A stretch of DNA of 64,000 nucleotides from an uncultured Gammaproteobacteria bacterium (GCA_964613455.1 CAZTGS010000001.1:64806-128805), one strand, 5' to 3'. Counted from the stretch's first letter, positions 19,970 through 55,531 are shown. The notes: generated by a model from the letters alone, not told the origin. Numbers and translations: made by a program.

Positions 19970-20164
19970 TTATTGATGCATGTCCGTATATGGTAAAAGA
20001 GCTAAGAATCTAGCAATTTTTATTGATTTAGTGACTTTTCTTTGATTAGAAGCAGAAATACCTGTGACTCTTGCAGGAATTATTTTTCCAGTTTCAGTAA
20101 TAAACTGTTTCAAAACATCTGTATCTTTATGATCAAACTTTTTTGGTAACTCATATTTACTCAT
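19970..20164 (-). CDS. rpsR: 30S ribosomal protein S18
   Basis: The conserved core is ...[31 protein letters not shown]. The track ORF extends to 20224, overlapping rpsF. The internal ATG at 20164 ([10 protein letters not shown]) starts right after the rpsF stop at 20166 and is preferred. Confidence 0.9.
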
Positions 20165-20165
20165 A

Positions 20166-20594: not shown

Positions 20595-20675
20595 GTTGTG
20601 CCTTATGGTTATAGATTCATACTTTTATTAGTAGGAACCAAGGAAGAGGCATGATAAAGGAATTGATTTTTAGAA

Positions 20676-23419: not shown

Positions 23420-24801
23420 TTATCTTTTATTGATTGGCAAACCGAAGAAACACTTCCTGCGCCTTGAGTAATAAGAATATCGAATTCATCTTTTTTAAGG
23501 TTTACTATATCAAGAACACTCTCATGACTTTTAATATAAGAAACATCTTTATGGCCTTGCTGTTTTATAGTTTCTACAATTGTTCTAGAATCTATTCCCT
23601 TGATAGGTTTTTCACTTGCAGGATATATATCAAGTAATATCAATGAATCTACCTTTTTTAAGACATTAATAAAATCTTCAAAAAGTTGAGCGGTCCTGGA
23701 GTATCTATGGGGTTGAAAAATCATGCATAATTTTTTATTTGGATATTCCTCCCTAAATGCTTTGATAGTTGAAAGAATTTCAATTGGGTGATGTCCATAA
23801 TCATCAATAAGAGTCTTTTTGCAAGAGCTTATTTCTAATTGATGTTTTTCATATCTCCTCTCAACACCTGAAAATTCACTAATTCCTTTTTTTATCGCTT
23901 TCAATGAAATGCCTTCTTCTATACAGGCAGCAATTGATGCAGAGGCATTATAAATATTATGAATACCAGGCATCTTTATTTTGAAACTATGAGTTTTTTT
24001 TCTTTGGTTATCTTTAATTTTAAAATGCTGTCTACCTTTTATAAATGATGCATCTAATATTTGAAAATCAGAATTTGATGATTTTCCAAATGTAATTTGT
24101 TTTCTGGATATTCTTTTTGAAATTTTTCTTATATTTTTGTCATCCCGATTAATAATCATATATCCATAAAAAGGAACATTTTCAGAAAACATCACAAATG
24201 CATCTAATAGGTATTCAAAATTATTGTCATAGTGAACTAAATGATCGTCATCGATATTAGTCAAAATAGCTACGTCTGGTTGCAAATGAGTAAATGATCC
24301 ATCACTTTCATCTGCTTCTGCAATAAGATAACTTCCCTCACCAAGATCTGAATTTTCATCTGTACTTAGAACTTTTCCGCCGACAACATAGGTTGGACTT
24401 AGCTCCGCTACACTAAATATTTTAGCAATCATGCTCGTTGTAGTTGTCTTTCCATGACTTCCAGCTATTGCAATGCTTTCATAACCTCTCATTATACTTC
24501 CGAGCATTTCAGCTCTTGGGATTACGGTTATTGATTCTTTCTTAGCTTGAACAATCTCTGGATTCTTTTTATCTATTGCAGATGAAACTACTATTAAATT
24601 GGCATTTTTAATGTTTTTATTTGAATGTCCGATAAAAACTTTAACACCAACCTTCCTTAATTTTTTTAACTCATAAGAGTCAATTAAATCAGATCCAGAA
24701 ATCTTATATCCTTTTTTTAATAAGACTCTGGCAATACCAATCATTCCAGCACCGCCGATTCCTATAAAGTGGATATGTTTAATTTTCTTAAAAAAATTCA
24801 T
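23407..24801 (-). CDS. murC: UDP-N-acetylmuramate--L-alanine ligase
   Basis: 464 aa with HFIGIGGAGM and the P-loop GSHGKTTTT. Confidence 0.95.
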   Translation of the reverse strand: MNFFKKIKHIHFIGIGGAGMIGIARVLLKKGYKISGSDLIDSYELKKLRKVGVKVFIGHSNKNIKNANLIVVSSAIDKKNPEIVQAKKESITVIPRAEMLGSIMRGYESIAIAGSHGKTTTTSMIAKIFSVAELSPTYVVGGKVLSTDENSDLGEGSYLIAEADESDGSFTHLQPDVAILTNIDDDHLVHYDNNFEYLLDAFVMFSENVPFYGYMIINRDDKNIRKISKRISRKQITFGKSSNSDFQILDASFIKGRQHFKIKDNQRKKTHSFKIKMPGIHNIYNASASIAACIEEGISLKAIKKGISEFSGVERRYEKHQLEISSCKKTLIDDYGHHPIEILSTIKAFREEYPNKKLCMIFQPHRYSRTAQLFEDFINVLKKVDSLILLDIYPASEKPIKGIDSRTIVETIKQQGHKDVSYIKSHESVLDIVNLKKDEFDILITQGAGSVSSVCQSIKDKWEI

Positions 24802-25844
24802 TTATTTAGATGCTCTATTGTCTTTGCTGAAATAACAGATGCGGCATTTTTATGATCTGTATTTATTTCAATTTTCCAATCATTGTATGTTTTTTGATAA
24901 ATAATTTCTGATACTTTAGCTACCAAATCTTTTAGCCCGTTTTTTTCATTATGAATCACTCCCATATTCATAGATTCAATATGCATGGCATTAATATATT
25001 GATGATTATCAATAGCTGAAGGTAATGGAATCATGAGCATTCCTTTTGCCATAGAAGATATTTCAGAGATGCTTAAAGCGCCAGATCTTGTAATAACAAA
25101 ATCAGACCAATTAATTATTGATTCAGGATTCTCATAAAATTCTTTAACCTCAACTTTTACTTTAGTATTTTTATAGGCTTCTCTAACAGCATCTATTTTT
25201 CTAGAGCCGCATTGATGTTTGATATTTATTTTTTTATTCAAGCTATTAAAACATTTTGGTACATTTTGATTAATATAATCTGCACCCTGGCTTCCACCTG
25301 TTACATATATATTAATAATGTCATTGCTATCAATGATATCTTTATAGTTAGAATTAAAACTATCTCTGATTGGATTGCCAGTAACTATTGAATTTTTTGG
25401 AGCTGAATCGATTACAAATCCAGTAAAATTCAATTTAGTTAATTTTGATAAAAATCTATTTGCTGAGCCCATAACTGAATTTTGTTCATGAATAAATAAT
25501 GGTTTTTGCATTAAAAATGATGCTATTCCAGCAGGCACTGTAATAAAACCGCCAAAACCAATCATTCCATCAACTTTTTCTTTCCTTATTATTTGCATTG
25601 ACTTGAAGATGCTTAACGGTAGTAAAAATAATGATTTTATTTTTTGGATGACGCCCTTACCCCTAAAACCCTCCATGGAAACTTTATAAAAAGTAAAATC
25701 TATATCTTTCAACGCATTCAATTCTATTTTTGCTCCTGAGCCTAAAAAAACAACCTCATGACCTTGTTTAATTAACTCTGAACCAACAGAAATTGCAGGA
25801 AATACATGGCCTCCAGTTTTTGCAGCTGAAATTAAAATCTTCAT
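24798..25844 (-). CDS. murG: Lipid II-forming GlcNAc transferase MurG
   Basis: 348 aa with KTGGHVFPA at the N-terminus and a GT28 C-terminal region (RSGALSISE). Confidence 0.93.
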   Translation of the reverse strand: MKILISAAKTGGHVFPAISVGSELIKQGHEVVFLGSGAKIELNALKDIDFTFYKVSMEGFRGKGVIQKIKSLFLLPLSIFKSMQIIRKEKVDGMIGFGGFITVPAGIASFLMQKPLFIHEQNSVMGSANRFLSKLTKLNFTGFVIDSAPKNSIVTGNPIRDSFNSNYKDIIDSNDIINIYVTGGSQGADYINQNVPKCFNSLNKKINIKHQCGSRKIDAVREAYKNTKVKVEVKEFYENPESIINWSDFVITRSGALSISEISSMAKGMLMIPLPSAIDNHQYINAMHIESMNMGVIHNEKNGLKDLVAKVSEIIYQKTYNDWKIEINTDHKNAASVISAKTIEHLNK

Positions 25845-25848
25845 ACTT

Positions 25849-26958
25849 CTATATTAGTTTGTTTTCGTTATTTATTCTAAGAACTATTGCTATAAGAGAC
25901 ATCATTATGATGATACTCGTTCCCCCATAACTGATGAAGGGTAAGGTAAGTCCTTTTGTAGGAAGAAGACCAATATTTACAGCAATATTAAACAATGACT
26001 GTATGGCGATTAGGATTAATATACCAAATGAAACGTAACCTTGAAAAAGCTTGCCTTTTTGTAATGAATCAAGCGTAACTCTCAAAATACCTATAAAAAG
26101 AATAACGAATAAAAATAATAAGAATAGTCCTCCAACAATACCAAGTTCCTCAACAATAATTGCAAATATAAAATCTGTATGTGCCTCGGGTAGAAAAAAA
26201 TTCTTTTGAAAACTATTACCCAAACCTAAACCAAACCACCCACCCTGGCCGATGCTAATTAAAGAATTTGATAATTGATAACCCGCCCCAAGAACAACCT
26301 CAGAGTCAAATGGATCCATATAAGCCATCATCCTTGCTATACGCATAGGTGATGAAGATATTGCAACAAATCCCAGTAAGGCGATAAGCATGGCTAAAAG
26401 GGTAAATTGAAAGAAAGAAATACCAGCGTAAAATAATATAGCCACAACTAATAAACAGATTATTGCTGTTGAGCCTAAATCTGGTTGGCCCATAATTAAA
26501 ACTGAAATAATAAAAAGTAAAAATAATGGCTTGAGAAAGCTCCTAAAAGAATCAATTTCAGACATTCTTCTGACTGAATAACCAGAAATATAGAGGATTA
26601 GACTAAATTTACAAATCTCAGAAGGTTGGATATTTACTGGTCCCAATCTTATCCAACGAATACTTCCATTTACAGCTGTTCCAACATCAGGAATAAACAA
26701 AGCTATTAAAAGTAATATTGTTATCAGCATAAATACCCAATCAGATTTATATAGGAACTCTGAGGGCAAAACTAAAAATAAAGACATTGCGAGTATGCCT
26801 ATAGCTATAAAAAGAATCTGCCTTGATGCAAAATGAAATGGATTACCTGTCATCTCATCCGCAATATATATACTTGAAGATGAAACCATAACTAACCCTA
26901 TACACATTAGGCAAATAAAAGGGATAAGTATTAAAAGATTATTTACCTGATTATTCAT
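25849..26958 (-). CDS. ftsW: SEDS peptidoglycan polymerase FtsW
   Basis: 369 aa, about 10 TM segments, with PEAHTDFIF and GLLPTKGLTLPFISYGG motifs. Confidence 0.93.
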   Translation of the reverse strand: MNNQVNNLLILIPFICLMCIGLVMVSSSSIYIADEMTGNPFHFASRQILFIAIGILAMSLFLVLPSEFLYKSDWVFMLITILLLIALFIPDVGTAVNGSIRWIRLGPVNIQPSEICKFSLILYISGYSVRRMSEIDSFRSFLKPLFLLFIISVLIMGQPDLGSTAIICLLVVAILFYAGISFFQFTLLAMLIALLGFVAISSSPMRIARMMAYMDPFDSEVVLGAGYQLSNSLISIGQGGWFGLGLGNSFQKNFFLPEAHTDFIFAIIVEELGIVGGLFLLFLFVILFIGILRVTLDSLQKGKLFQGYVSFGILILIAIQSLFNIAVNIGLLPTKGLTLPFISYGGTSIIIMMSLIAIVLRINNENKLI

Positions 26959-27985
26959 TAAAGATCTCTTCTACAAGCAAATTGAAATTTTTTCCCCTTT
27001 CTTCAAAATTTCTATAATCAGATCCGCTTGGATAGCCTGGAGAAAAAAGGATATTTTTTATATTTTTCTGCTGTTTTATATGGTCTAAGGCCTTTCTTAA
27101 ATTTAAAAAAATCTTTTTATTTGTATTCTGGATACATTCAGATATTTCTTTTCGATGATTCCCGCATATTAATACTTCTTCTGGTCCATCTAATGAAACT
27201 TTTGAGAATCTTTCTTTTTCAGGGTTTCCACATGTAATAAGAACATAATTTTTATTTTGGAATCCTTTATTTGCTAACTCAATTGCATATTGAAGAGAAT
27301 GCATATTTGTTGATTTTGAATCATTTATAATTGAATTAGATATTTTTTGATATCTATATGGAAGATCTTTAAATGTTTGGTTTTGAGCCTTTGATCCAGT
27401 AATCCATTCGAATATTTCATAAGGGTCTTCCGTTTTTAGAAATTTTTTACTATTTAAGACTTTCTTTTTGGTTCTTTTATAATCCTCAAAACTGCCATGA
27501 TAGTCTAAATGGTCTTCAGCTATATTTAGTAGAATACCAAAATCCAATTCGTTTACAGACATTTTATCTAACTGAAAACTTGATAGTTCAATAATAGAGT
27601 ACTTCTTTCCATTATTGATAGAGTCAAGCATTGGATTGCCAATATTGCCTATCAAATTGACTATATTTTGACTCTTAAAAAGTTGGTATAAGTGAAAGCA
27701 AGTTGTACTTTTTCTATTAGTTCCAGTAATGCCGATCTTTATTGATGTATCTTCTCTAAAAAAAATATCTAAATCAGTTAAAATGTTGCTCTTAGATTTC
27801 AATAATTTAAAAACGCTTCTTGGAACTCCTGGACTACAGTAAATATAGTCATATTCCTCAAGAGGCTCTATATTTTTAAATTTTGAAATATTGCTATCGA
27901 AAATATCAAACTCAAGGTTCTTCTTTTGTAAATATCTTTCAAATGATTTTCCTGTAATCCCATAACCATATATTAAGGACTTCAT
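26951..27985 (-). CDS. murD: UDP-N-acetylmuramoylalanine--D-glutamate ligase (compact, atypical P-loop)
   Basis: 344 aa versus about 440 aa typical. P-loop is GITGTNRKST (Arg where Mur ligases have Gly). C-terminal LFSPGYPSGSDYRNFEERGKNF matches the MurD C-terminus. Position between mraY and ftsW. Confidence 0.85.
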   Translation of the reverse strand: MKSLIYGYGITGKSFERYLQKKNLEFDIFDSNISKFKNIEPLEEYDYIYCSPGVPRSVFKLLKSKSNILTDLDIFFREDTSIKIGITGTNRKSTTCFHLYQLFKSQNIVNLIGNIGNPMLDSINNGKKYSIIELSSFQLDKMSVNELDFGILLNIAEDHLDYHGSFEDYKRTKKKVLNSKKFLKTEDPYEIFEWITGSKAQNQTFKDLPYRYQKISNSIINDSKSTNMHSLQYAIELANKGFQNKNYVLITCGNPEKERFSKVSLDGPEEVLICGNHRKEISECIQNTNKKIFLNLRKALDHIKQQKNIKNILFSPGYPSGSDYRNFEERGKNFNLLVEEIFNE

Positions 27986-27994
27986 TTCTAAGTA

Positions 27995-29080
27995 CTATCT
28001 CAACTTTAAAGTTGCTAGTGCTATCAGAATTAAAACAAGAGTAACAATCCAAAAACGAACAATAATTTTAGGCTCTGGCCATCCCTTTAACTCATAATGA
28101 TGATGAATAGGAGCCATTAAAAAGACTCTTTTACCTCTTGTTTTAAATGAGATAACTTGAATTGCGACGCTTAAAGTTTCTATTACAAAAACTCCAGCCA
28201 TAATTGCAAAAACTAACTCATGTCTTAATATAACAGCAAGTATACCCAGGATTGCCCCTAATGTTAGCGATCCTATGTCTCCCATGAATATTTGCGCGGG
28301 ATAAGTGTTGTACCAAAGAAAGCCTATTCCAGAGCCAATCAGAGCACCACAAAAAACTATTAATTCTCCAGAAAGTTCTAAATGAGGCAAATATAAATAA
28401 CTAGCTATAATTTGATTACCCATGCTGTAGGCTATAAGCCCAAGCGCTCCTGCTATAAGAACCGAAGGAAGAATGGCAAGTCCATCCAATCCATCAGTGA
28501 GATTAACAGCATTAGACGATCCAACCAAAACAAACATTCCTGTAAATATAAAAACGAATGGGCTCATTGGTATTATTAAATCCTTAAAGAAAGGAACTAT
28601 AAAAGAAGTCTCAGGAAGTGTTTCAGCTGAATGATATAAATAAAATAATGTTATAAATGAAAATAATAATTGAAGAATAACTTTTTGTTTAGAATTTAAA
28701 CCATCAGAACTTTTCTTTTTTATTTTAATAAAGTCATCAATAAAGCCTATCGAAGCGAATGCAACTGTTACAAATAGAACAACCCATATATACCTATTGC
28801 TTAGATCAGCCCAAAGCAGAGTAGAAACCACTAAAGACGATAGAATTAATAGTCCTCCCATAGTGGGTGTTCCAGATTTTTTATAATGAGATTCCGGCCC
28901 ATCAGTCCTAACGTGTTGCTCAAATTGCATAGACTTCAAAAGATTTATAATAAAAGGGCCCATTAAAATTGAAATCATGAGCGCTGTAACAGTGCCGCCA
29001 AGAGTTCTTACTGTTAGATATCTAAGAACATCAAAACCTGGATCTACATCCACCAATACTGAGCCTAAATATTCAAACAT
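27995..29080 (-). CDS. mraY: Phospho-N-acetylmuramoyl-pentapeptide transferase
   Basis: 361 aa with NAVNLTDGLDGLA and the PIHHHYE motif. Confidence 0.97.
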   Translation of the reverse strand: MFEYLGSVLVDVDPGFDVLRYLTVRTLGGTVTALMISILMGPFIINLLKSMQFEQHVRTDGPESHYKKSGTPTMGGLLILSSLVVSTLLWADLSNRYIWVVLFVTVAFASIGFIDDFIKIKKKSSDGLNSKQKVILQLLFSFITLFYLYHSAETLPETSFIVPFFKDLIIPMSPFVFIFTGMFVLVGSSNAVNLTDGLDGLAILPSVLIAGALGLIAYSMGNQIIASYLYLPHLELSGELIVFCGALIGSGIGFLWYNTYPAQIFMGDIGSLTLGAILGILAVILRHELVFAIMAGVFVIETLSVAIQVISFKTRGKRVFLMAPIHHHYELKGWPEPKIIVRFWIVTLVLILIALATLKLR

Positions 29081-30413
29081 TTATAAATTTTTCCATTTTC
29101 ATGCCTCTAGACCCCTTTAATAGGACAATATCTTTTGAACCAATATTCTCTTTTAAGAATATTTTTAATTCCTTCTCTGAATCAAAGAAAATTCCTTTCT
29201 TGCCAAAGCTCTTTACAGCATATTTTGTTAAATCACCAAAACCAAGGAAAATATCAATTTTTTTCTTTGCAGCATATAAGCCAATATTTATATGATATTT
29301 CTTTTTATATTTTCCAAGCTCTAACATATCTCCAAGAACTAATACCTTGTGTCTCTTCGAAGTCGCTAAAAGATCTATAGCTTTTGTTACTGAATCAGGG
29401 TTAGCATTATAAGTGTCATCAATTAAGGTAGATCCTCTTAGCCATTTTGATTGATTCTGTCTTAGATTATTTGTTGAATTCTTGTTGATGCTTTTAAAAA
29501 ATAACTCATTTGAATTTTTTGAATAAAAACTTGCAGCAAAAGAAGCCAATATATTTTTAATATTATGCTCTCCAACCATACTTGTATTAACTGTTTCTAA
29601 TAAACCATTCTTTTTTGAACAAATATCAAATTTCATTCGATTAAGATTTAGTTTGATATTGGTTGCAAAAAAATCTGCACTCTTATTCATACCAAAAGTT
29701 ACTACCTCCAAATCATCTCTAAAATTTTTCCATAACTTTAAATGTTGTTTATTCTCATTAGGCACAATCAAAACACCATTTCTTTTTATATTTGTAATTA
29801 ATTCAGACTTAACCTTTAGGACACCTTTAATATTTTTTAAATTTTCTAAATGAGAATTTCCAATATTTGTAATAATTCCAATATGTGGTTTTAATATTGA
29901 GCTTAAATAACTAATATCTCCTGGTTTTGCTGCTCCCATTTCAATAACTAAGTGTTTAGAATTTGGGTTAGATCTCATTATACTTAAAGGCATGCCTAGT
30001 TCGTTGTTATAGTTTTTTAGAGTGCTGGAACTAGCCCTAAGTGCATTAGTAATAATTTTTGTGGTTGTTGTTTTACCATTACTTCCTGTAATACCAATAA
30101 TGTTCCCATGATATTCATGTAAGATTTTTTTAGATATTTTTTTAAGTGCTATGGTTGAGTTCTTAACATAAATTATTTTTTTATTTTTAGAATTTATAAA
30201 CTGTTTACTATCTGTTATTGCAAGGCATGCTCCATTCTTGAAAGCATCATCTATGAATTCATTTCCATTAAAATTTTTACCATTAATTGCTATAAATAAT
30301 GAATCTTTCTTGATTGTTCTTGAGTCAAGAGAGATGTTCTTAATTTCAATATTTTTTATAACTGAAATATCTAAGAAATGTGAAAGATCATTTGAATTAT
30401 TTATAAATTTCAT
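29073..30413 (-). CDS. murF: UDP-MurNAc-tripeptide--D-Ala-D-Ala ligase
   Basis: 446 aa with P-loop GITGSNGKTTT and DDTYNANPDS. Confidence 0.93.
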   Translation of the reverse strand: MKFINNSNDLSHFLDISVIKNIEIKNISLDSRTIKKDSLFIAINGKNFNGNEFIDDAFKNGACLAITDSKQFINSKNKKIIYVKNSTIALKKISKKILHEYHGNIIGITGSNGKTTTTKIITNALRASSSTLKNYNNELGMPLSIMRSNPNSKHLVIEMGAAKPGDISYLSSILKPHIGIITNIGNSHLENLKNIKGVLKVKSELITNIKRNGVLIVPNENKQHLKLWKNFRDDLEVVTFGMNKSADFFATNIKLNLNRMKFDICSKKNGLLETVNTSMVGEHNIKNILASFAASFYSKNSNELFFKSINKNSTNNLRQNQSKWLRGSTLIDDTYNANPDSVTKAIDLLATSKRHKVLVLGDMLELGKYKKKYHINIGLYAAKKKIDIFLGFGDLTKYAVKSFGKKGIFFDSEKELKIFLKENIGSKDIVLLKGSRGMKMEKFINV

Positions 30414-31908
30414 TGACTACCTCATGATCACTAAAATATAAAAACTTACCATTTATTTCTTGAGTATTCTCATGGCCTTTTCCAAGAATAACTAGACAGT
30501 CATTGTCACCAATCATCTTACTTCCTTGGATAATTGCCTCTTTTCTATCCTCTATTGCCAGAACATCATGATTTTTCATACTATCGATAGCATCATTATA
30601 AATACTATTAAAACTTTCACTTCTTGAGTTATCAGAAGTAAAAATTACTTTTTTTCCATTCTGCATAGCAATTTTTAGCATTTTAGGTCTTTTTAGTTTA
30701 TCTCTATCTCCACCACAACCAAAAATAATTATTAAGTTATCAAAATAACTCTTTATGGATGACAAAAATAATTCAAAACCTTCGGCATTATGAGCAAAAT
30801 CAATAATAACATTTGCCGATATATCAGAAATAAGCTCAGTTCTTCCCTGGGGAAGATTTAAGAAAGATAAATTATTTGTATTTGAAGTAGAAAAATTTGC
30901 GAAGCCTATTGAACAAATAGCAAAGACAAGATTTTGAATATTAAAGTCAGGAAATAAAGAGGATGAGAATTTATAAGTCTTCTTGGAGTCTACCGGATAT
31001 CCAAATGGAGGATTGTTGATGGTTATTTGAAAAATTGATTTATTAAAATTAGATTCTATTATTTCATAATAAATATCTGAAAATTGATTTTCACTTCCTA
31101 TACAAGTTAGCTTATATGGGCTGTTCTTAATAAAGTCATAATCATCTCCTAGAGTTTTTAAGTTTTCGTTAATCAGCCTAACCTGACTTGTGGTATCAAA
31201 TATTGAAAATTTAGCATTAGCATAATTATTTAAATTTAGATGGTAATCTAGATGGTCCGTTCCTATATTTAAAATAGATGCAGAATTTAAACAGGACAGA
31301 TATTTCAATCTATCTTGAACAAGTGCATGGGAGGACATTTCAATACATACAGAAACAGAATCTTGAAAGTCATAGAACTTAAAAATATTAAATAGTTCAA
31401 AGATGTCAGGAGTAGTTTTTGATGAGAATGATTGGTTTATCTCTTCATTGTTGTGCTGAGTGCCTATTGTTCCGATATAAACTGATTCACAATCTTGAGA
31501 TATTAATAACTGATGACAAAGGTATGCAGTTGATGTTTTACCATTTGTTCCAGTAAAGGCAAAAAAATTATTTCTATTTTGAATATTGAGTATTTGATGA
31601 AATTCTTCTAAAAAATAATAGATTTTATCTCTTACAAAAAAATCATCGGCATCTTCGAGATCTTCAATATAAAAAACATTGCCTCTTTCAGATATATAAC
31701 TGGGATCATTATGGACAGCGATAGATGCACCAAGCTCCAATGCAAGTTCTATATGTTTACTGCCATGATTTGTTTCTCCTCTTAGTCCAAAAAAAATAGA
31801 GTCTTTTTTTACCTTATCTGTTGAATTAGTAGCATTGGTTATTTTAGTTTCAAGTGGAAAAGTCACCTCAAGTATTTTTTCTAATTCATTCATTTCCAAA
31901 ATATCCAA
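30397..31908 (-). CDS. murE: UDP-MurNAc-L-Ala-D-Glu--2,6-diaminopimelate ligase
   Basis: 503 aa with P-loop FTGTNGKTS and DFAHNAEGFE (DYAHTPD-like). Position between ftsI and murF. Confidence 0.9.
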   Translation of the reverse strand: MDILEMNELEKILEVTFPLETKITNATNSTDKVKKDSIFFGLRGETNHGSKHIELALELGASIAVHNDPSYISERGNVFYIEDLEDADDFFVRDKIYYFLEEFHQILNIQNRNNFFAFTGTNGKTSTAYLCHQLLISQDCESVYIGTIGTQHNNEEINQSFSSKTTPDIFELFNIFKFYDFQDSVSVCIEMSSHALVQDRLKYLSCLNSASILNIGTDHLDYHLNLNNYANAKFSIFDTTSQVRLINENLKTLGDDYDFIKNSPYKLTCIGSENQFSDIYYEIIESNFNKSIFQITINNPPFGYPVDSKKTYKFSSSLFPDFNIQNLVFAICSIGFANFSTSNTNNLSFLNLPQGRTELISDISANVIIDFAHNAEGFELFLSSIKSYFDNLIIIFGCGGDRDKLKRPKMLKIAMQNGKKVIFTSDNSRSESFNSIYNDAIDSMKNHDVLAIEDRKEAIIQGSKMIGDNDCLVILGKGHENTQEINGKFLYFSDHEVVNEIYK

Positions 31909-33502
31909 GATGATTTATTGAGCTTTCTGCAATAAGAGAAAATAATGGAGCTGCTACCGCTCCACCGCTGTATTTATTTAGGCTTGGTTCATTAATAGAT
32001 ACAAAAATAGTTAGAGAATTGTTTTCAATTGGAACGATTCCTACAAAAGTAGCTCTATATTTGTCTTCTTGATATCCGCCTCCAATTGATTTGTGAACAG
32101 TTCCAGTTTTACCACCTATATTAAAACCTTTTACTTTAGCTGCCTTACCAGTTCCAATTTTTACTACTTTTTGCAACGCTTCCAAGGTATGCCTCGCAGA
32201 TTCTTCTGAGATTAATCTTTTTTCAGGGACCTCATCAGATAATATTAATTTAAAATCTTTAAAGATCCCTTTGTTAGCAAAAACTGAATAAGCTGAAGTT
32301 ATTTGAAAAGGGCTTACTTCAAATCCATATCCATATCCCATAGATGCTATCTCTATTTCAGATATATTTTCTTGAATCTTTAAAAAACCAAATGCTGAAG
32401 AGGGAAAATTGACTGAAATAGGCCTAGAAAAACCAAAATCTAGGTAAGTTTGTTTTAAATTTTTATAACCCAACATCATTGCCACTTTTGATGCTCCAAC
32501 TTGACTTGAAAAAGCTATTACCTCTTTAGGAGTAAGCTTCTCATAACTTTTTGTATCAGTAATAATTTTATTTCCAATATTTAATCTTCTTGGTATATCC
32601 ATAAGACTGTCAGGATTTATAATTCCTTTATCTGTTGCACTAGAGAATACTATTGGCTTCAAAACAGATCCCATCTCATACGAATCAACTAAAGCTCTGT
32701 TCATTTGAATCTTTCTATCTGGACTATTGGGATTGTAGGAAGGATAGCTTGCAATTGCTAGAATCTCACCACTAGTATTATCAAATACGAGAACAGTTCC
32801 ACTTTTGGCGCTATTATCTTTGATAGCTTCTACAAGATGTTTATACGCATAGAATTGAATAGTTGAATCAATTGTTAATTTTATATCTTTTCCAGAGAAC
32901 GTTCTTTCTACCTCAATTGGTTTAGAGATAGTTATTTGCTTGGCATTTGTATAATATTTTTGTTTTCCTGGTGTGCCTGATAGAACTGAATCATAACTCT
33001 TCTCAATGCCTTCTAAGGCCCTATCTTTTCCATGAAAACCAATTAGAGGGGCTATTTGATCGCCTAATGGGTAATGTCTACTGTGCCTAACCTCAATTTC
33101 CAATCTATTAAAATCTAACCTATTAATAATTGCCTGTTCTCTAATTGTTAAGTTTTTCTTTAATAAAGTTTTTTTTATGAATGATGAGTCTTCTAATTTT
33201 ATATCCGCTATGGCAATTAAATCTTTAAGCTTCAAATATCTATCAAGGTTCAGGCCACCTAGGGCATATAAATCATAATTAACAACAGATACTGCAAGAG
33301 GAAAATTGTTTCTATCAAAAATAGTTCCTCTTACGGGATTTGTATCTTTATATTTTATATATCTCTTCTTTCCTTCATATTGTAAAAAGTTACTGTCAAA
33401 GACTTGGACAGAGATAATTTTTGAAGCAACTGCCAAAATAGAGAGGCTAAGACAAAGGCAAACAACTAGAAGCCTCCAATTTATGTAATTAGTCTTTTTC
33501 AT
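31886..33502 (-). CDS. ftsI: Peptidoglycan D,D-transpeptidase FtsI (PBP3)
   Basis: 538 aa with an N-terminal TM, SxxK (GSVLKP) and KTGT (GGKTGTV) motifs. Confidence 0.93.
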   Translation of the reverse strand: MKKTNYINWRLLVVCLCLSLSILAVASKIISVQVFDSNFLQYEGKKRYIKYKDTNPVRGTIFDRNNFPLAVSVVNYDLYALGGLNLDRYLKLKDLIAIADIKLEDSSFIKKTLLKKNLTIREQAIINRLDFNRLEIEVRHSRHYPLGDQIAPLIGFHGKDRALEGIEKSYDSVLSGTPGKQKYYTNAKQITISKPIEVERTFSGKDIKLTIDSTIQFYAYKHLVEAIKDNSAKSGTVLVFDNTSGEILAIASYPSYNPNSPDRKIQMNRALVDSYEMGSVLKPIVFSSATDKGIINPDSLMDIPRRLNIGNKIITDTKSYEKLTPKEVIAFSSQVGASKVAMMLGYKNLKQTYLDFGFSRPISVNFPSSAFGFLKIQENISEIEIASMGYGYGFEVSPFQITSAYSVFANKGIFKDFKLILSDEVPEKRLISEESARHTLEALQKVVKIGTGKAAKVKGFNIGGKTGTVHKSIGGGYQEDKYRATFVGIVPIENNSLTIFVSINEPSLNKYSGGAVAAPLFSLIAESSINHLGYFGNE

Positions 33503-33770
33503 TAATTTTAATCAAAATAGTTTGAGCTCTTTTTTTTACCATCCCAAGCTTTTCTTTGGAATCTTTCTCGATACTTGCTGGAGAATTTTCAGTGTGAAAT
33601 TGAGTTACAAGCTTAAGATTTAAATCTTTAAAATTAGCATATTCTATTAATAAATTTTGATTATTTCCATGGAGTCTATTTATTTCAAATGCGAGCTTAA
33701 TTTTTTCCAGGGCGAGAAAGCATGAACTAAATAATAGAGTACTTAAGATTATAGATTGTGCGTAACTCAT
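33489..33770 (-). CDS. ftsL: Cell division protein FtsL
   Basis: 93 aa with a TM, a coiled coil, and the SIEKDSKEKLGM motif. Position between rsmH and ftsI. Confidence 0.8.
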   Translation of the reverse strand: MSYAQSIILSTLLFSSCFLALEKIKLAFEINRLHGNNQNLLIEYANFKDLNLKLVTQFHTENSPASIEKDSKEKLGMVKKRAQTILIKINEKD

Positions 33771-34663
33771 TATATTTTTTTAAAGACTCTCATAATTGCA
33801 CTTCTAGATCTTTTATTTCTATCTACTTCTTCAAGACTAGGTCTTATTTTCTTTGCAATGCATGAAAATTCTTTATGTTCGATTGTATTTAATGGGATAT
33901 CTTTCGGATAATTTTTAATTTCTGGTCTAAAGAAATTCTTAACAATGTTATCTTCCAACGAATGGAAAGATATTATAACTATTACGGCATCTTTTTTAAT
34001 AATAGTACTTGCTTGTTTAAGTCCTTCTTTTAACTCCTCAAGTTCATTATTGATAAAAATTCTAAAAGCTTGAAAGGATTTTGTAGCTGGATGTATTTTT
34101 ATTCTTTTATCTGGATAAATTTCTTCAATAATTTGAGCTAACTGAATTGTTGTTTCTATTAATTTTTTTTCTCTAAATTTTAGAATAGAATCAGTAATAA
34201 TTTTTGCGTGCTTTTCATCACCATATTTATACAAAATATCCATAATCTCATTTCTGTCTGCTTTATTTATCCAGTCAGATAAAGGGAAGCCTTTTAAGGT
34301 ATTGAATCTCATGTCTAGTGGCCCATCGTGTCTAAAACTAAAACCTCTTGTTTCATCATCAAAATGAGTTGAGCATGTCCCTAAATCAAAAAGAATTCCA
34401 TCTACTGAATCTTTCTCAAAATAAGACTCTAATTTATTAAATGAATTATGTTTTGCAGTAAAGTTTTTATTATTAATATTAGAGGCATCAATAAATGCAT
34501 CTGGATCTTTGTCTAGGGATGTTAAATGTCCTTCTGATGAAATTCTATCTAGTATAGCTCTGGTATGTCCACCTCTGCCATAAGTACAATCTATATATAT
34601 ACCATCTTTTTTTTGGACGAGAAATTCTAAAGACTCTTCCAGTAGCACTGGAAAATGAAGCAT
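33770..34663 (-). CDS. rsmH: 16S rRNA m4C1402 methyltransferase RsmH (MraW)
   Basis: HFPVLLEE...DCTYGRGGHTRAIL...ISFHSLEDNIVK. Confidence 0.96.
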   Translation of the reverse strand: MLHFPVLLEESLEFLVQKKDGIYIDCTYGRGGHTRAILDRISSEGHLTSLDKDPDAFIDASNINNKNFTAKHNSFNKLESYFEKDSVDGILFDLGTCSTHFDDETRGFSFRHDGPLDMRFNTLKGFPLSDWINKADRNEIMDILYKYGDEKHAKIITDSILKFREKKLIETTIQLAQIIEEIYPDKRIKIHPATKSFQAFRIFINNELEELKEGLKQASTIIKKDAVIVIISFHSLEDNIVKNFFRPEIKNYPKDIPLNTIEHKEFSCIAKKIRPSLEEVDRNKRSRSAIMRVFKKI

Positions 34664-34664
34664 A

Positions 34665-35774
34665 TTAGTCTACTTGTTTTCTCATAAAAGTTGGTACATC
34701 AAGGAAATCAATTGCCTCTGCAGACGATGCACCAACTCTTTGATTGGTTTGTTCTTTATTTAATCCAACTGGATTAAGCTGAATTGTTGGTTGGTTATCT
34801 ATAACAAGAGATGGAGCTCTTTGATCAACACCAGTAGCCACTATAGTTACCAATAAATCATCCTTAACACTATCATCATAGACAAGTCCGTAAATAATAT
34901 TTGCGTCCTCATGCACTATTTCTTCGACTATATCTGCCACTTCTGTTTGGTCGCCCAAAGTAGGTTTTGCTGCAGTTATATTTACAAGAACGCCTCGAGC
35001 ATTCTTAAGATTTATGTCTTCAAGCAACTCACTTTTAACAGCTTGGGTTGCAGCAGCTTCTGCTCTCTTTTTTCCACTAGCCCTTCCTGTTCCCATCATA
35101 GCTATGCCTTTTTCTGACATTACAGTTTTTACGTCTGCAAAATCGACGTTAATGTGACCTTTTTTCATAATTATGTCAGATATCCCCTGAACGGCACCCT
35201 TTAGAACATCATCAGCCTTTGCAAATGCATCTTGCATTGCAGTATCTTCTCCAAGAATTTCATATAACTTTTGATTTGGAATAGTTACTAAACTATCAAC
35301 TTCCTCAACCAATGCTGCTAGACCCTTTTCAGCTGCAGACATTCTTTTTTTACCTTCAAATCTAAATGGCTTAGTTACAACAGCAACTGTTAAAGCACCC
35401 ATATCTTTTGCAATTGAAGCAACAACTGGAGCCGCTCCTGTGCCTGTTCCACCGCCCATTCCTGCTGTTATGAATACCATATCAGCTCCAACTAATAACT
35501 CTTCTATTGCAGCTCTATCGCTCTCAGCAGCTTTTCTTCCAACATCCGGATTTGCGCCTGCTCCTAAGCCTTTTGTTAAACCATTACCTAATTTAAGAGT
35601 AATAGCTCCATCAGCTTCAGAAAGTGCCTGAGTATCAGTATTCGCACATATAAAATCGACGCCTTGAATTTTATGATTGATCATATGGATTACGGCATTT
35701 CCACCTGCACCACCTACTCCCACTACTTTAATTTTAGCGCTTTCAACTGCCTGGCCTATTACTTCAAAGTTCAT
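34665..35774 (-). CDS. ftsZ: Cell division GTPase FtsZ (non-canonical position inside the dcw cluster)
   Basis: 369 aa with VVGVGGAGGNAV, the tubulin signature GGGTGTGAAP, NQKL, and the C-terminal peptide DVPTFMRKQVD. An AAGGGGA Shine-Dalgarno lies 6-7 nt upstream. Confidence 0.97.
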   Translation of the reverse strand: MNFEVIGQAVESAKIKVVGVGGAGGNAVIHMINHKIQGVDFICANTDTQALSEADGAITLKLGNGLTKGLGAGANPDVGRKAAESDRAAIEELLVGADMVFITAGMGGGTGTGAAPVVASIAKDMGALTVAVVTKPFRFEGKKRMSAAEKGLAALVEEVDSLVTIPNQKLYEILGEDTAMQDAFAKADDVLKGAVQGISDIIMKKGHINVDFADVKTVMSEKGIAMMGTGRASGKKRAEAAATQAVKSELLEDINLKNARGVLVNITAAKPTLGDQTEVADIVEEIVHEDANIIYGLVYDDSVKDDLLVTIVATGVDQRAPSLVIDNQPTIQLNPVGLNKEQTNQRVGASSAEAIDFLDVPTFMRKQVD

Positions 35775-35787
35775 TGTCTATCCCCTT

Positions 35788-36255
35788 TTAAAATGACATT
35801 GATTTAATGCTTTCTGGTAATACTACGTCTAATATCTCTGTTGATAGAGATCCGCCCATTTGTCTCATTTCCCAGTTATTAATATTCCATATTTCAAATT
35901 TATCGCCCATACCAATTAATGAGATTTGCTTTTCATCATAAATTTCTGCATATTTTCTTAATTCAGCTGGGATTAATAACAACATTCTTCCTTTTACATC
36001 TAAATCAATTACATTAGCATTGCCTAGAATAGTCCATTGGAGATTTCTTACTATTGGATCTAAGCCCTGCAATGACTGCAATTTAGATGAAATAATTTCC
36101 CACTCTGATTCAGGATAAATTTTTAATGATGGGTATTGCGGATCTTTGGTTACAACTATTTTAGTTTCATTGTTTTGCAATAAATGAGCACGGTATTTAG
36201 CTGGGATAGCTAATCTACCCTTTTGATCTAATGAAACCGTATTGAATCCAAACAT
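35788..36255 (-). CDS. mraZ: Transcriptional regulator MraZ
   Basis: 155 aa. MFGFNTVSLDQKGRLAIPAKYR plus a second DVKGRMLLIPAELR repeat gives the two SpoVT/AbrB-like halves. Confidence 0.95.
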   Translation of the reverse strand: MFGFNTVSLDQKGRLAIPAKYRAHLLQNNETKIVVTKDPQYPSLKIYPESEWEIISSKLQSLQGLDPIVRNLQWTILGNANVIDLDVKGRMLLLIPAELRKYAEIYDEKQISLIGMGDKFEIWNINNWEMRQMGGSLSTEILDVVLPESIKSMSF

Positions 36256-36262
36256 GCAACAA

Positions 36263-36291
36263 AATATAAAGCCTTTTTACACACTTTGCAA
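36263..36291 (-). promoter_or_regulatory. Predicted sigma70 promoter of the dcw cluster (Pmra-like)
   Basis: Minus strand: TTGCAA (36291-36286), 17 nt, TATATT (36268-36263). Only 7 nt (ttgttgc) separate the -10 from the mraZ ATG, and no Shine-Dalgarno sequence is present. Confidence 0.5.
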
Positions 36292-36304
36292 CACATTTAC
36301 ACAC
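36275..36304 (-). promoter_or_regulatory. Three direct 10-bp-phased GTGTK repeats (putative MraZ operator)
   Basis: Minus strand: GTGTGTAAAT GTGTTGCAAA GTGTGTAAAA. The period is exactly 10 bp, and the repeats overlap the -35 and spacer of the predicted promoter. Confidence 0.6.
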
Positions 36305-36336
36305 TTTTTCTCACTAGCAAAGAATATTAGCTAGTA

Positions 36337-36674
36337 AATGAGTTGGTCTGTAAGCCGGATTCTGTAAAAGATGATCATCTATCTCGATATTATGTTGCCA
36401 TAATACTCTAGCAACCTACCCAAATCCTAAGCGAGCAGCTTTATAGGATTTCTATTTGGTCTTGCTTCAGGCTGGGGTTTACAATGCCTTAACTGTCTCC
36501 AGTTAAGCGGTAGGCTCTTACCCCACCTTTTCACCCTTACCAATATAAAATTGGCGGTATACTTTCTGTTGCACTTTCCGTAGGCTTACGCCTCCCAGGT
36601 GTTACCTGGCGCCCTGCTCTGTGAAGTCCGGACTTTCCTCTAACAATAAATATTAGCGATCATCCAACCAACTC
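36337..36674 (-). ncRNA. rnpB: RNase P RNA, bacterial type A
   Basis: The minus strand reads GAGTTGGTTGG...GAGGAAAGTCCGGACTTCACAGAGCAGGGCGCCAGGTAACACCTGGGAGGCGTAAGCCTACGGAAAGTGCAACAGAAAG...GGTAAGGGTGAAAAGGTGGGGTAAGAGCCTACC...ACAGAATCCGGCTTACAGACCAACTC. P4 strands, the P1 pairing and conserved loops match E. coli M1 RNA. Ends are approximate (+/-5 nt). Confidence 0.93.
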
Positions 36675-36680
36675 GAGATT

Positions 36681-36694: not shown

Positions 36695-37510
36695 TTAATC
36701 TAATAGTTGTTTATATATCTCTCTCTTATTCTCTTTGGTGATAAGTGAAATTAGTTTAGCTGCATCCTTAGCTGGCATTATTTTCAAGAAGGCCTCACTT
36801 ATTTTTTTGTCTAAAATAAATTTTGGTTTTAAAGATGAGTTTGCCTCTATAACAATTACAAACTCTCCCTTTAATATTATTTCATCTTTTTTTATTTTTT
36901 CTAGGATATTTGAAATAGTCCCTCTTTGAATATCTTCATAGATCTTAGTCATCTCTCTACACAAAGATATCTTTTTTGTCTTTGAGTAGTACTCATTAAG
37001 ATGCTCTAGAGTTTTTTCAATTCTTTTTGCAGATTCAAAAAGAATTATTGTATTTTTTTCATACTTCAAAGCATTAAAGAAATCTTTTTTATGAGTAGCT
37101 TTTCTAGGGACGAACCCTAAAAAACAAAAACTTGAAGTTGGAAGTCCTGAAAGTACTAAAGCATTTATTACAGATGATGGGCCAGGCAGTAAAGTAAATT
37201 TAATATCATTTTTAATACACTCTTGAACCAACAAATAACCAGGATCAGAAATTGCTGGCGTGCCAGCATCGGAAACCAATGAAATATTAATATTCTTATC
37301 CTTTAAAAGTTCGACAATATGTTTGCTAACTTCTATCTCATTATGCTCGTGAAGTGCTTGAGATTTTGTATCAACATTGATAAATTTTAATAGCTTATTT
37401 GTATTTCTGGTATCTTCAGCATATATATAATCTGAATTTTTAAGAACATCGATTGCTCTTAGTGATATATCATTTAGGTTACCTATTGGTGTTGATATAA
37501 GATTTAACAT
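36695..37510 (-). CDS. rsmI: 16S rRNA 2'-O-ribose C1402 methyltransferase RsmI
   Basis: LISTPIGNLNDISLRAIDVLKNSDYIYAEDTRNT, the tetrapyrrole-methylase fold N-terminus typical of RsmI/YraL. Confidence 0.92.
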   Translation of the reverse strand: MLNLISTPIGNLNDISLRAIDVLKNSDYIYAEDTRNTNKLLKFINVDTKSQALHEHNEIEVSKHIVELLKDKNINISLVSDAGTPAISDPGYLLVQECIKNDIKFTLLPGPSSVINALVLSGLPTSSFCFLGFVPRKATHKKDFFNALKYEKNTIILFESAKRIEKTLEHLNEYYSKTKKISLCREMTKIYEDIQRGTISNILEKIKKDEIILKGEFVIVIEANSSLKPKFILDKKISEAFLKIMPAKDAAKLISLITKENKREIYKQLLD

Positions 37511-55526: not shown

Positions 55527-55531
55527 ATTAA

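What the first reader, a model, noticed from the sequence alone, without database searches (positions are those of the whole stretch)
33770..36255. ftsZ relocated from the 3' end of the dcw cluster to second position (mraZ-ftsZ-rsmH-ftsL-...-ftsQ-ftsA)
The dcw order mraZ-rsmH-ftsL-ftsI-murE-murF-mraY-murD-ftsW-murG-murC-ddl-ftsQ-ftsA-ftsZ(-lpxC) is among the most conserved gene orders in rod-shaped bacteria. Here every gene is in the canonical order except ftsZ. It is inserted seamlessly between mraZ and rsmH, with a 13-nt gap carrying a strong AAGGGGA Shine-Dalgarno upstream and a 1-nt gap downstream. ftsA is the terminal gene and is followed 81 nt later by rpsF. No ftsZ or lpxC lies downstream of ftsA. 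The protein is a fully canonical FtsZ (GGGTGTG, C-terminal DVPTFMRKQ tail), not a divergent paralogue. The consequences would be significant. ftsZ would lose the ftsQ/ftsA-internal promoters that set the FtsZ:FtsA ratio in E. coli. It would become the first structural gene transcribed from the MraZ-controlled promoter. It would also be separated from ftsA by about 13 kb.
Basis: partly seen in the sequence, partly recalled or inferred. Interest (0 to 1): 0.7.

Follow-up and report, generated by a model that had tools for sequence, protein, structure and literature searches.

The report
ftsZ moved forward in SAR86 division operon
[quoted passage not shown] The sister branch carries a different forward move of the same gene, so the cluster is less fixed than usually thought.

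Summary
On the minus strand the window reads rsmI - rnpB - mraZ - ftsZ - rsmH - ftsL - ftsI - murE - murF - mraY - murD - ftsW - murG - murC - ddl - ftsQ - ftsA - rpsF.

It is not a misassembly. The same order recurs on many independent marine contigs whose FtsZ is 70-94% identical. These include contigs longer than 1 Mb and one contig that carries both ends of the cluster. The lineage is SAR86 (order Magnimaribacterales).

FtsZ is canonical, has native codon composition, and groups with SAR86 FtsZ just as FtsA and MraY do. A published marker table lists it as single-copy in SAR86 genomes. A conserved MraZ operator (three GTGT boxes, 6-nt spacers) lies upstream of mraZ. ftsZ has the strongest Shine-Dalgarno sequence in the cluster, and no conserved promoter lies inside mraZ.

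New here: a sister SAR86 clade, which includes family RedeBAC7D11, has a second non-canonical order, mraZ-rsmH-ftsL-ftsQ-ftsA-ftsZ-ftsI-murE. Each order is one block swap from the canonical one and two from each other, which suggests two independent forward moves of ftsZ.

I found no published description. The regulatory consequences are inferred, not shown.

The parts
36695..37510 (-). rsmI (16S rRNA C1402 2'-O-methyltransferase). It is the conserved upstream neighbour in both SAR86 gene orders.
   Evidence: TIGR00096, 249 bits. Present upstream of mraZ in L001-L007 and L095-L100.
36335..36675 (-). rnpB, the RNase P RNA gene, lying between rsmI and mraZ.
   Evidence: Rfam RF00010, 323 bits. 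Found at the same position in all 9 related loci tested.
36281..36304 (-). MraZ operator: three GTGT boxes with 6-nt spacers (GTGTGTAAATGTGTTGCAAAGTGT).
   Evidence: This exact three-box pattern occurs only once on either strand of the 64-kb window. The boxes are conserved in relatives while the flanks vary. [quoted passage not shown]
36263..36291 (-). Promoter-like site (TTGCAA-17-TATATT) whose -35 element overlaps the operator. This is the candidate Pmra.
   Evidence: Consensus scan, 9 of 12 matches. It is the only listed minus-strand match between rnpB and the ftsZ start codon. A consensus match is not proof of function.
35788..36255 (-). mraZ, the first gene of the cluster.
   Evidence: TIGR00242, 103.7 bits, above its cut-off. 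Both DNA-binding KGR motifs are visible in the translation.
35775..35787 (-). 13-nt mraZ-ftsZ spacer carrying the Shine-Dalgarno sequence AAGGGGA.
   Evidence: The predicted duplex with the anti-SD is -7.8 kcal/mol, the strongest among the 20 genes scored from rsmI to dnaB. AGGGGA or GGGGA is conserved in all type A relatives.
34665..35774 (-). ftsZ: canonical and, by published SAR86 marker counts, single-copy. This is the relocated gene.
   Evidence: TIGR00065, 395 bits. It has the tubulin signature and the C-terminal peptide. GC3 is 0.21, like its neighbours. The same context occurs in relatives.
33770..34663 (-). rsmH (mraW), starting 1 nt after the ftsZ stop codon.
   Evidence: TIGR00006, 311 bits. 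The junction is shown.
33489..33770 (-). ftsL candidate (93 aa).
   Evidence: Assigned by position and size. It has no NCBIfam hit. The orthologous ORF in L004/L005 hits Pfam FtsL.
22514..33502 (-). ftsI, murE, murF, mraY, murD, ftsW, murG, murC and ddl in canonical order, with gaps of -23 to +9 nt.
   Evidence: ORFs and translations. ftsI was scanned against NCBIfam here and matches FtsI/PBP families below their cut-offs; window MurD matches Pfam Mur_ligase_M. The orthologous genes in related loci carry the expected Pfam families. Gaps are listed.
21892..22530 (-). ftsQ (212 aa, divergent).
   Evidence: Weak NCBIfam FtsQ hit, E=4e-4. Relatives hit Pfam FtsQ_DivIB_C.
20676..21902 (-). ftsA, the last gene of the cluster.
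   Evidence: TIGR01174, 478 bits. It is followed by rpsF in the window and in relatives.
20166..20675 (-). 81-nt spacer followed by rpsF. rpsR, rplI and dnaB follow. No ftsZ or lpxC is present here.
   Evidence: TIGR00166 for rpsF. Spacer sequence. Outgroup LpxC has no tblastn hit in the window.

Best explanation
[quoted passage not shown] It characterises one of two sister clades of SAR86 (Magnimaribacterales). I call it type A.

**How it arose.** The single canonical ftsZ was moved from behind ftsA to the slot between mraZ and rsmH. In terms of gene order this is one swap of adjacent blocks: [rsmH...ftsA] exchanged with [ftsZ].

**How it most likely works.**
- The 16 genes from mraZ to ftsA are packed with gaps of -23 to +13 nt. 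They are most likely one transcription unit.
- That unit is driven by a promoter whose -35 element overlaps a conserved three-box MraZ operator.
- ftsZ is therefore the first gene after the autoregulator. It is translated from its own strong Shine-Dalgarno sequence.
- Its output is probably set by Pmra/MraZ, operon position and translation strength, rather than by promoters inside ftsQ/ftsA as in E. coli.

**The sister clade.** Type B, which includes family RedeBAC7D11, instead moved the whole ftsQ-ftsA-ftsZ block to between ftsL and ftsI. Both orders place ftsZ ahead of the mur genes. The most parsimonious history is two independent forward moves from a canonical ancestor.

**Shown versus inferred.**
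- Shown: the gene order, its breadth across relatives, vertical descent, the operator and the Shine-Dalgarno sequence.
- Inferred: co-transcription, MraZ control of ftsZ, any selective advantage, and the independence of the two events.

**Confidence.** The figure given (0.75) is an overall value. I put the structural and evolutionary statement at about 0.9 and the regulatory mechanism at about 0.5.
For: **Order and identity.**

**Breadth of type A.**
- Ten loci from independent assemblies show rsmI-mraZ-ftsZ-rsmH-ftsL-ftsI. Their FtsZ is 70-85% identical to the window's.
- P0011 is indexed in 902 blocks of the collection, on contigs up to 1.26 Mb.
- ftsA-rpsF-rpsR-rplI-dnaB is found in relatives whose FtsA is 74-81% identical.
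- L001 and L090 lie on the same 228-kb contig, so both ends of the cluster are seen together.

**Taxon.** An FtsA homologue is named 'SAR86 cluster bacterium'. L096 is GCA_902563105.1, assigned to RedeBAC7D11, which is o__SAR86 f__AG-339-G14 in GTDB.

**Canonical controls.** 79 of 80 loci from other bacteria have ftsA directly upstream of ftsZ.

**Single copy.** TIGR00065 is counted 1 (0 in one genome, never 2) in the listed SAR86 genomes and is in the marker set of the closed HIMB1674 genome.

**Vertical descent.**
- NJ bootstrap support for type A plus type B as one group is 100% for FtsZ once one long-branch MAG is dropped, and 48% with it. It is 93% for FtsA and 100% for MraY.
- Both types share a derived C-terminal peptide in FtsZ.
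- GC3 of ftsZ equals that of its neighbours.

**Regulation.**
- The MraZ boxes occur once in the window and are conserved in both types. They match the published consensus.
- A promoter-like site overlaps them.
- ftsZ has the strongest Shine-Dalgarno sequence in the cluster.
- No positionally conserved sigma-70-like site lies inside mraZ.
- The only terminator-like match on the coding strand inside the cluster lies within the ftsI coding sequence, and matches are no more frequent than in shuffled sequence.

**Type B order.** Seen in five divergent lineages.
Against: **No transcript data.**
- Co-transcription and MraZ control are inferred from spacing and motifs only.
- Consensus promoter scans are weak in DNA of 32% GC. 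The scan found 65 sites, against 82 expected in shuffled sequence.

**Copy number.** The single-copy evidence comes from other SAR86 genomes, not from the genome that holds this window.

**Independence of the two events.**
- It rests on parsimony over block swaps and on NJ trees from single proteins.
- MraY does not resolve type B as a clade (45%).
- No SAR86 genome with the canonical order was seen, so the ancestral state is not observed.
- The 3' end of type B could not be fetched.

**Family assignment.** The assignment of type A to the Suzuki and/or CHAB-I-7 families is an inference from tree shape, not a test.

**Neutral alternative.** A neutral rearrangement that keeps the gene in the same operon and orientation would look the same.
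Confidence: 0.75

Rival explanations
1. The rearrangement is real but selectively neutral. ftsZ stayed in the same operon and orientation, so expression hardly changed, and the order was afterwards frozen by ordinary selection against breaking the operon.
For: - The gene remains in a tightly packed, co-oriented cluster.
- There is no sign of new regulatory DNA at either junction. The spacers are 13 nt and 1 nt.
- The strong Shine-Dalgarno sequence is not specific to the new position, because type B ftsZ also has one behind ftsA.
Against: - A second, different forward move of ftsZ in the sister clade is an unlikely coincidence, given that 79 of 80 other bacteria keep ftsA-ftsZ.
- Moving a gene about 14 kb closer to the only recognisable promoter should raise its share of transcripts if any polarity exists. 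This point is inference from general operon behaviour.
Confidence: 0.35
2. This ftsZ is an extra or foreign copy, arising by duplication or horizontal transfer and inserted behind mraZ. The ancestral copy survives elsewhere or was displaced.
For: - By raw identity the window FtsZ is as close to outgroups (55-58%) as to type B SAR86 (51-57%).
- With the long-branch Burkholderiaceae MAG L050 included, support for type A plus type B as one group falls to 48%.
- The rest of this particular genome could not be searched.
Against: - There is no ftsZ after ftsA in the window or in relatives.
- TIGR00065 is single-copy in the listed SAR86 genomes.
- Without L050, type A plus type B are one group at 100% for FtsZ, as they are for FtsA (93%) and MraY (100%).
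- The SAR86-specific C-terminal peptide is shared by both types.
- GC3 is 0.21, like the flanking genes.
Confidence: 0.04
3. The order is an assembly or binning chimera joining the 5' end of one dcw cluster to an unrelated ftsZ.
For: None found. It was considered only because the window is of unknown origin.
Against: - The same junctions occur in assemblies from ENA, JGI and NCBI made with different assemblers.
- Junction spacers have diverged (13-16 nt and 1-4 nt) while the architecture is conserved.
- The arrangement is present on contigs longer than 1 Mb.
Confidence: 0.01

Closest known systems
Canonical gammaproteobacterial dcw cluster (E. coli mraZ-rsmH-ftsL-ftsI-murE-murF-mraY-murD-ftsW-murG-murC-ddlB-ftsQ-ftsA-ftsZ, followed by lpxC)
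   Same: - The gene set is the same and all genes are co-oriented.
- mraZ is first, with an upstream operator of GTG(G/T) repeats.
- The order of the other 15 genes is identical.
- FtsZ is canonical and keeps its C-terminal peptide.
   Different: - ftsZ is second instead of last.
- ftsA is terminal and is followed by rpsF rather than ftsZ-lpxC.
- lpxC is not within the 64-kb window.
- ftsZ can no longer be served by promoters inside ddl, ftsQ or ftsA. That such promoters supply much of ftsZ transcription in E. coli is from my own knowledge of that literature and was not checked here.
SAR86 type B order found here (RedeBAC7D11 and related lineages): mraZ-rsmH-ftsL-ftsQ-ftsA-ftsZ-ftsI-murE-murF-mraY-murD
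   Same: - It belongs to the same order of bacteria.
- The upstream synteny is the same: GST/sspA - lpoA - rsmI - rnpB - mraZ.
- MraZ boxes are present.
- ftsZ lies ahead of the mur genes and has a strong Shine-Dalgarno sequence.
   Different: - The whole ftsQ-ftsA-ftsZ block moved, so the ftsA-ftsZ adjacency is kept.
- ftsZ is sixth rather than second.
- The 3' end of this cluster was not seen.
Reduced mycoplasma dcw operon (mraZ-mraW-ftsA*-ftsZ in Mycoplasma genitalium; PMC12957436)
   Same: ftsZ is co-transcribed with mraZ from an MraZ-box promoter and lies only a few genes from it. The boxes are AAAGTGT-like, as in SAR86.
   Different: In mycoplasmas the closeness comes from deletion of the intervening wall genes, and ftsZ is still last. 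In SAR86 nothing was deleted and the gene itself changed place.

Membership tests
FtsZ (TIGR00065 equivalog; canonical division tubulin homologue) | Full-length match above the curated cut-off. | tested here: met
   395.2 bits against a cut-off of 295.2, covering residues 10-325.
FtsZ (TIGR00065 equivalog; canonical division tubulin homologue) | Tubulin signature GGGTG(T/S)G and the N-terminal GxGGxGxNA nucleotide-binding motif. | tested here: met
   GMGGGTGTGAAP and GVGGAGGNA align with 27 other FtsZ sequences.
FtsZ (TIGR00065 equivalog; canonical division tubulin homologue) | Conserved C-terminal peptide that binds FtsA and ZipA. | tested here: met
   LDVPTFMRKQVD aligns with LDIPAFLRRQAD of the outgroups. 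ZipA is a marker gene present in SAR86 genomes. Binding itself was not tested.
FtsZ (TIGR00065 equivalog; canonical division tubulin homologue) | It is the only ftsZ in the genome, that is, the functional division gene rather than a paralogue. | tested here: inconclusive
   TIGR00065 is counted 1 in the listed SAR86 genomes, and no ftsZ follows ftsA. The rest of this genome could not be searched.
dcw (division and cell wall) cluster | mraZ, rsmH, ftsL, ftsI, murE, murF, mraY, murD, ftsW, murG, murC, ddl, ftsQ, ftsA and ftsZ are contiguous and co-oriented. | tested here: met
   16 genes lie at 20676-36255 on the minus strand, with gaps of -23 to +13 nt.
dcw (division and cell wall) cluster | Canonical internal order with ftsQ-ftsA-ftsZ at the 3' end. 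| tested here: not met
   ftsZ lies between mraZ and rsmH, and ftsA is last. The canonical order holds in 79 of 80 control loci.
MraZ-regulated Pmra promoter | Three or four GTG(G/T) boxes with about 6-nt spacers upstream of mraZ (PMC12957436). | tested here: met
   GTGT-N6-GTGT-N6-GTGT lies at 36304-36281 and occurs once in the window. Boxes are conserved in type A and type B relatives, some with a degenerate middle box.
MraZ-regulated Pmra promoter | MraZ binds the boxes and changes transcription of the downstream genes. | not testable with these tools
   This needs EMSA or reporter assays, or transcriptomics.
SAR86 / Magnimaribacterales | Close relatives are assigned to the order by phylogenomics. 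| tested here: met
   - An FtsA homologue at 81% identity is named 'SAR86 cluster bacterium'.
- The type B locus L096 belongs to a genome classed as o__SAR86.
- Type A and type B group together in the FtsA, MraY and FtsZ trees.
- GC of 32% fits the published 31-40% range.
- The family within the order was not determined.

The most novel reading that the evidence does not exclude
The two deep branches of SAR86 independently moved ftsZ towards the single MraZ-controlled promoter of the dcw operon. They did so because genome streamlining removed the internal ftsQ/ftsA promoters and the regulators that normally set the FtsZ level. In these cells the FtsZ:FtsA stoichiometry, and so the timing of division, would be set by operon position, Shine-Dalgarno strength and MraZ autoregulation alone. 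That would make MraZ, whose role is still poorly understood, the main transcriptional control of cytokinesis in one of the most abundant bacterial groups in the ocean.
Probability: 0.25. Interest if true: 0.7.

Novelty: new variant of a known kind. Interest (0 to 1): 0.55.

Why it matters
[quoted passage not shown] Here an abundant, globally distributed order of marine bacteria breaks that rule in two different ways without losing any gene. This bears on two questions: why the order is normally conserved, and how much of ftsZ control depends on its position behind ftsA.

**MraZ.** In type A, mraZ is directly coupled to ftsZ. That offers a clean system for the long-standing question of what MraZ is for.

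**It can now be tested.** A first SAR86 isolate with a closed genome exists (HIMB1674, PMC11582366). Marine metatranscriptomes already quantify SAR86 ftsZ (PMC13349992).

**Practical use.**
- The two orders are simple synteny markers for SAR86 sub-lineages.
- Studies that use ftsZ transcripts as a growth index should know that in SAR86 ftsZ is probably part of a different transcript architecture.

Tried and rejected
1. **Genome-contig scan with FtsZ.** One of the six peptide patterns (MVFITAGM) appears to be near-universal. The 80 loci were reused as a canonical-order control.
2. **Metagenome scan with a type B MurD fragment.** The aim was to reach the 3' end of the type B cluster. It returned only two short contigs ending in ftsW and murG.
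3. **Family of type A.** The NCBI records reached (GCA_028112285.1, GCA_900632185.1, GCA_001756985.1) are either absent from the SAR86 family tables or were not looked up there; the last is a record with more than 47,000 contigs rather than a single genome. The window holds no gdhA or nagZ that could serve as a family marker.
4. **lpxC.** It is not in the window, and its location in SAR86 was not found.
5. **A dedicated ftsZ promoter inside mraZ.** Only weak sigma-70-like matches at non-conserved positions were found in five type A sequences. This is weak negative evidence.
6. **Terminators.** The only minus-strand match inside the cluster lies within the ftsI coding sequence. Matches were no more frequent than in shuffled sequence, so I treated it as chance.
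7. **Literature.** No paper describes mraZ-ftsZ-rsmH or ftsL-ftsQ-ftsA-ftsZ-ftsI. Megrian et al. 2022 on dcw evolution appeared among the search results only as a citation in other papers and was not read, so a mention there cannot be excluded.
8. **HGT reading.** I considered it because raw FtsZ identity to the outgroups equals that to type B. I rejected it on trees, shared derived motifs and GC3.
Full report
**1. The observation**

The window has about 32% GC. All the genes below lie on the minus strand.

The reported region reads rsmI (36695-37510), rnpB RNA (36335-36675; Rfam RF00010, 323 bits), mraZ (35788-36255), ftsZ (34665-35774), rsmH (33770-34663) and ftsL (33489-33770). It continues with ftsI, murE, murF, mraY, murD, ftsW, murG, murC, ddl, ftsQ (21892-22530) and ftsA (20676-21902). 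After that come rpsF (20166-20594), rpsR, rplI, dnaB, alr, pyrG, kdsA and eno.

NCBIfam equivalog models confirm MraZ, FtsZ (395 bits against a cut-off of 295), RsmH, FtsA, S6 and RsmI.

- 13 nt (AAGGGGATAGACA) between mraZ and ftsZ;
- 1 nt between ftsZ and rsmH;
- 81 nt between ftsA and rpsF.

FtsZ has the tubulin signature GMGGGTGTG and the C-terminal peptide LDVPTFMRKQVD. LpxC, the M23 peptidase and SecA follow ftsZ in the outgroups. None of them has a tblastn hit in the window.

**2. It is not an artefact and not a single-genome oddity**

FtsZ homologues 70-94% identical to the window's are numerous in marine metagenomes. I fetched the context of four of them:
- P0011 (85% identical), indexed in 902 blocks of the collection, on contigs up to 1.26 Mb;
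- P0052 (76%);
- P0113 (70%);
- P0038 (81%).

All ten loci read rsmI-mraZ-ftsZ-rsmH-ftsL-ftsI-murE-murF-mraY as far as they extend. The spacers have diverged (13-16 nt and 1-4 nt), but the AGGGGA Shine-Dalgarno sequence is conserved.

FtsA homologues at 74-81% identity are followed by rpsF-rpsR-rplI-dnaB-alr. One 228-kb contig carries both ends of the cluster (L001 and L090). One gene caller even fused mraZ and ftsZ into a single 525-aa protein (P0004).

**3. Taxon**

An FtsA homologue at 81% identity is named 'SAR86 cluster bacterium'.

GC content and contig sizes fit SAR86. The published figures are 31-40% GC, genomes of 1.05-1.66 Mbp, and four families. Suzuki plus CHAB-I-7 are sister to Magnimaribacteraceae plus RedeBAC7D11 (PMC11582366).

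**4. Controls**

The genome-contig scan was saturated by what appears to be a near-universal motif. It returned 80 loci at 47-62% identity from other bacteria. Among the closest were Cellvibrionaceae, Marinobacter, Halieaceae, Porticoccaceae and SAR92.

In 79 of the 80, ftsA lies immediately upstream of ftsZ. The other locus is cut at the contig end. lpxC follows ftsZ in four of the five loci I inspected. So the canonical order is the outgroup state.

**5. One copy, vertically inherited**

Supplementary Table 1 of PMC11582366 counts TIGR00065 (FtsZ) as 1 in the listed SAR86 genomes, 0 in one of them and never 2. It also includes FtsZ in the marker set of the closed HIMB1674 genome.

GC3 of ftsZ is 0.21, the same as its neighbours. 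Its higher overall GC (0.39) reflects its Gly/Ala-rich composition.

In NJ trees with 300 bootstrap replicates:

| Protein | Support for SAR86 type A + type B as one group |
|---|---|
| FtsA | 93% |
| MraY | 100% |
| FtsZ, long-branch Burkholderiaceae MAG L050 dropped | 100% |
| FtsZ, L050 included | 48% |

SAR86 FtsZ proteins of both types also share a derived C-terminal peptide. The residue after the proline is T or S where outgroups have A. The penultimate residue is V, I or L where outgroups have A. The gene was therefore moved within the genome, not imported.

**6. A second rearrangement in the sister clade**

An all-against-all representative search gave P0327. It is 52% identical to the window FtsZ but has SAR86-like termini. 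I searched with it and looked up five progressively more distant homologues. Every one showed this order, here called type B:

GST/sspA - lpoA - rsmI - rnpB - mraZ - rsmH - ftsL - ftsQ - ftsA - ftsZ - ftsI - murE - murF - mraY - murD (confirmed by tblastn and Rfam).

The upstream synteny is the same as in the window. One of these loci, L096, is from GCA_902563105.1, classed as RedeBAC7D11, which is o__SAR86 f__AG-339-G14 in GTDB.

In the FtsA and FtsZ trees, type A and type B are reciprocally monophyletic sister clades. Type A has 100% support. Type B has 95-100%.

In terms of swaps of adjacent blocks:
- canonical to type A is one swap, [rsmH...ftsA] with [ftsZ];
- canonical to type B is one swap, [ftsI...ddl] with [ftsQ-ftsA-ftsZ];
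- type A to type B needs two swaps.

The most parsimonious history is therefore two independent forward moves of ftsZ from a canonical ancestor. This is inference. No SAR86 locus with the canonical order was seen, and the 3' end of type B could not be fetched.

**7. How it probably works**

*The operator and promoter.* Upstream of mraZ lies GTGT-GTAAAT-GTGT-TGCAAA-GTGT (36304-36281). [quoted passage not shown] The pattern occurs only once on either strand of the 64-kb window.

The boxes are conserved in both SAR86 types while the flanks vary. Some relatives have a degenerate extra box.

A promoter-like TTGCAA-17-TATATT site (36291-36263) has a -35 element that overlaps the boxes.

*The transcription unit.* From mraZ to ftsA the 16 genes are separated by -23 to +13 nt. 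No positionally conserved sigma-70-like site lies inside mraZ in five type A sequences. The only terminator-like match on the coding strand lies within the ftsI coding sequence, and matches are no more frequent than in shuffled sequence.

*Translation.* ftsZ has the strongest predicted Shine-Dalgarno pairing of the cluster, at -7.8 kcal/mol. The next strongest are murF (-6.9) and ftsA (-5.6).

*Best reading.* There is one long MraZ-autoregulated transcript. ftsZ is the first gene after the regulator and is efficiently translated. ftsA is last, and its start is overlapped by the end of ftsQ.

In E. coli much of ftsZ transcription comes from promoters within ddlB, ftsQ and ftsA. This is from my own knowledge of that literature and was not checked here. 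In type A these sites can no longer feed ftsZ. In type B the block moved as a unit and could have kept them.

I cannot tell whether the move was selected or was neutral. A selective reason might be a high FtsZ:FtsA ratio obtained with few promoters in a streamlined genome. The second event in the sister clade is the only argument for selection.

**8. Comparison with what is known**

[quoted passage not shown] Known departures are mainly gene losses, dispersal as in cyanobacteria, or reduction as in the mycoplasma operon mraZ-mraW-ftsA*-ftsZ.

I found no paper that describes ftsZ between mraZ and rsmH, or ftsQ-ftsA-ftsZ between ftsL and ftsI. I also found no paper discussing dcw order in SAR86. 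The SAR86 isolate paper mentions neither ftsZ nor dcw in its main text. The main recent survey of dcw evolution (Megrian et al. 2022) was not read, so prior mention there cannot be excluded.

**9. Verdict**

- It is a new variant of a known kind of system, an internally permuted dcw operon, not a new kind of system.
- It would moderately surprise cell-division specialists.
- It makes the position-dependence of ftsZ control testable in an ecologically dominant, now culturable group.
- My confidence is about 0.9 for the structural and evolutionary statement and about 0.5 for the regulatory mechanism.

Noticed in passing
L095-L099 (type B loci), for example L096 2726-13197: A sister SAR86 clade, including RedeBAC7D11, has another non-canonical dcw order: mraZ-rsmH-ftsL-ftsQ-ftsA-ftsZ-ftsI-murE-murF-mraY-murD. 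The 3' end of this cluster was not reached.
   Followed up: partly
window 36335-36675 (-): The RNase P RNA gene rnpB sits between rsmI and mraZ. It is at the same place in all 9 type A and type B loci tested, so the dcw promoter region begins right after a stable-RNA gene.
   Followed up: partly
window 26951-27985 (-): MurD is only 344 aa, against 398-454 aa called in type B relatives. E. coli MurD is about 440 aa, from my own knowledge. Only the central Mur ligase domain reaches E<1e-8 in Pfam. This may be a compacted enzyme in a streamlined genome.
   Followed up: no
L095 6001-7125 (FtsZ P0426; the P0327 group): This type B sub-lineage has GMGKGTGTG in place of the nearly invariant tubulin signature GMGGGTGTG. 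It also has GVGGCGGNA in the N-terminal motif. All 27 other FtsZ sequences aligned keep GGGTGTG.
   Followed up: no
P0004 (JGI contig of 40,624 nt; not fetched): A 525-aa protein call carries both the MraZ and FtsZ Pfam domains, so the two adjacent genes were fused by the gene caller. This could be a lost stop codon, a sequencing error or a genuine fusion in that population.
   Followed up: no
window 19970-20224 (-): The longest rpsR ORF (TTG start, 84 aa) overlaps rpsF by 59 nt. Relatives are called at 64 aa, so the real start is probably the internal ATG.
   Followed up: no
window 37529-38689 (+): The ORF divergent from rsmI (386 aa) has no NCBIfam hit. Its positional counterparts in relatives give weak or full Pfam LppC (LpoA) hits. 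It is probably a very divergent LpoA.
   Followed up: no
window 54214-56581 (-): mreB and mreC are present, followed by an unscanned 160-aa ORF at the place where mreD would be expected. At least part of the rod-elongation system is therefore encoded, even though the one cultured SAR86 strain is described as a small coccobacillus (PMC11582366).
   Followed up: no
L050 (Burkholderiaceae MAG MED-G174): Its FtsZ is drawn to the SAR86 clade in the NJ tree and cuts support for type A plus type B from 100% to 48%. In the FtsA and MraY trees it stays outside the gammaproteobacterial ingroup, next to the other betaproteobacterial outgroup. This is probably long-branch or compositional attraction between low-GC marine lineages.
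   Followed up: partly
L091 7982-9061: In the most divergent type A sub-lineage sampled through FtsA, an AurF-like or ribonucleotide-reductase-small-subunit-like gene lies between alr and pyrG. It is absent at this place in the window.
   Followed up: no
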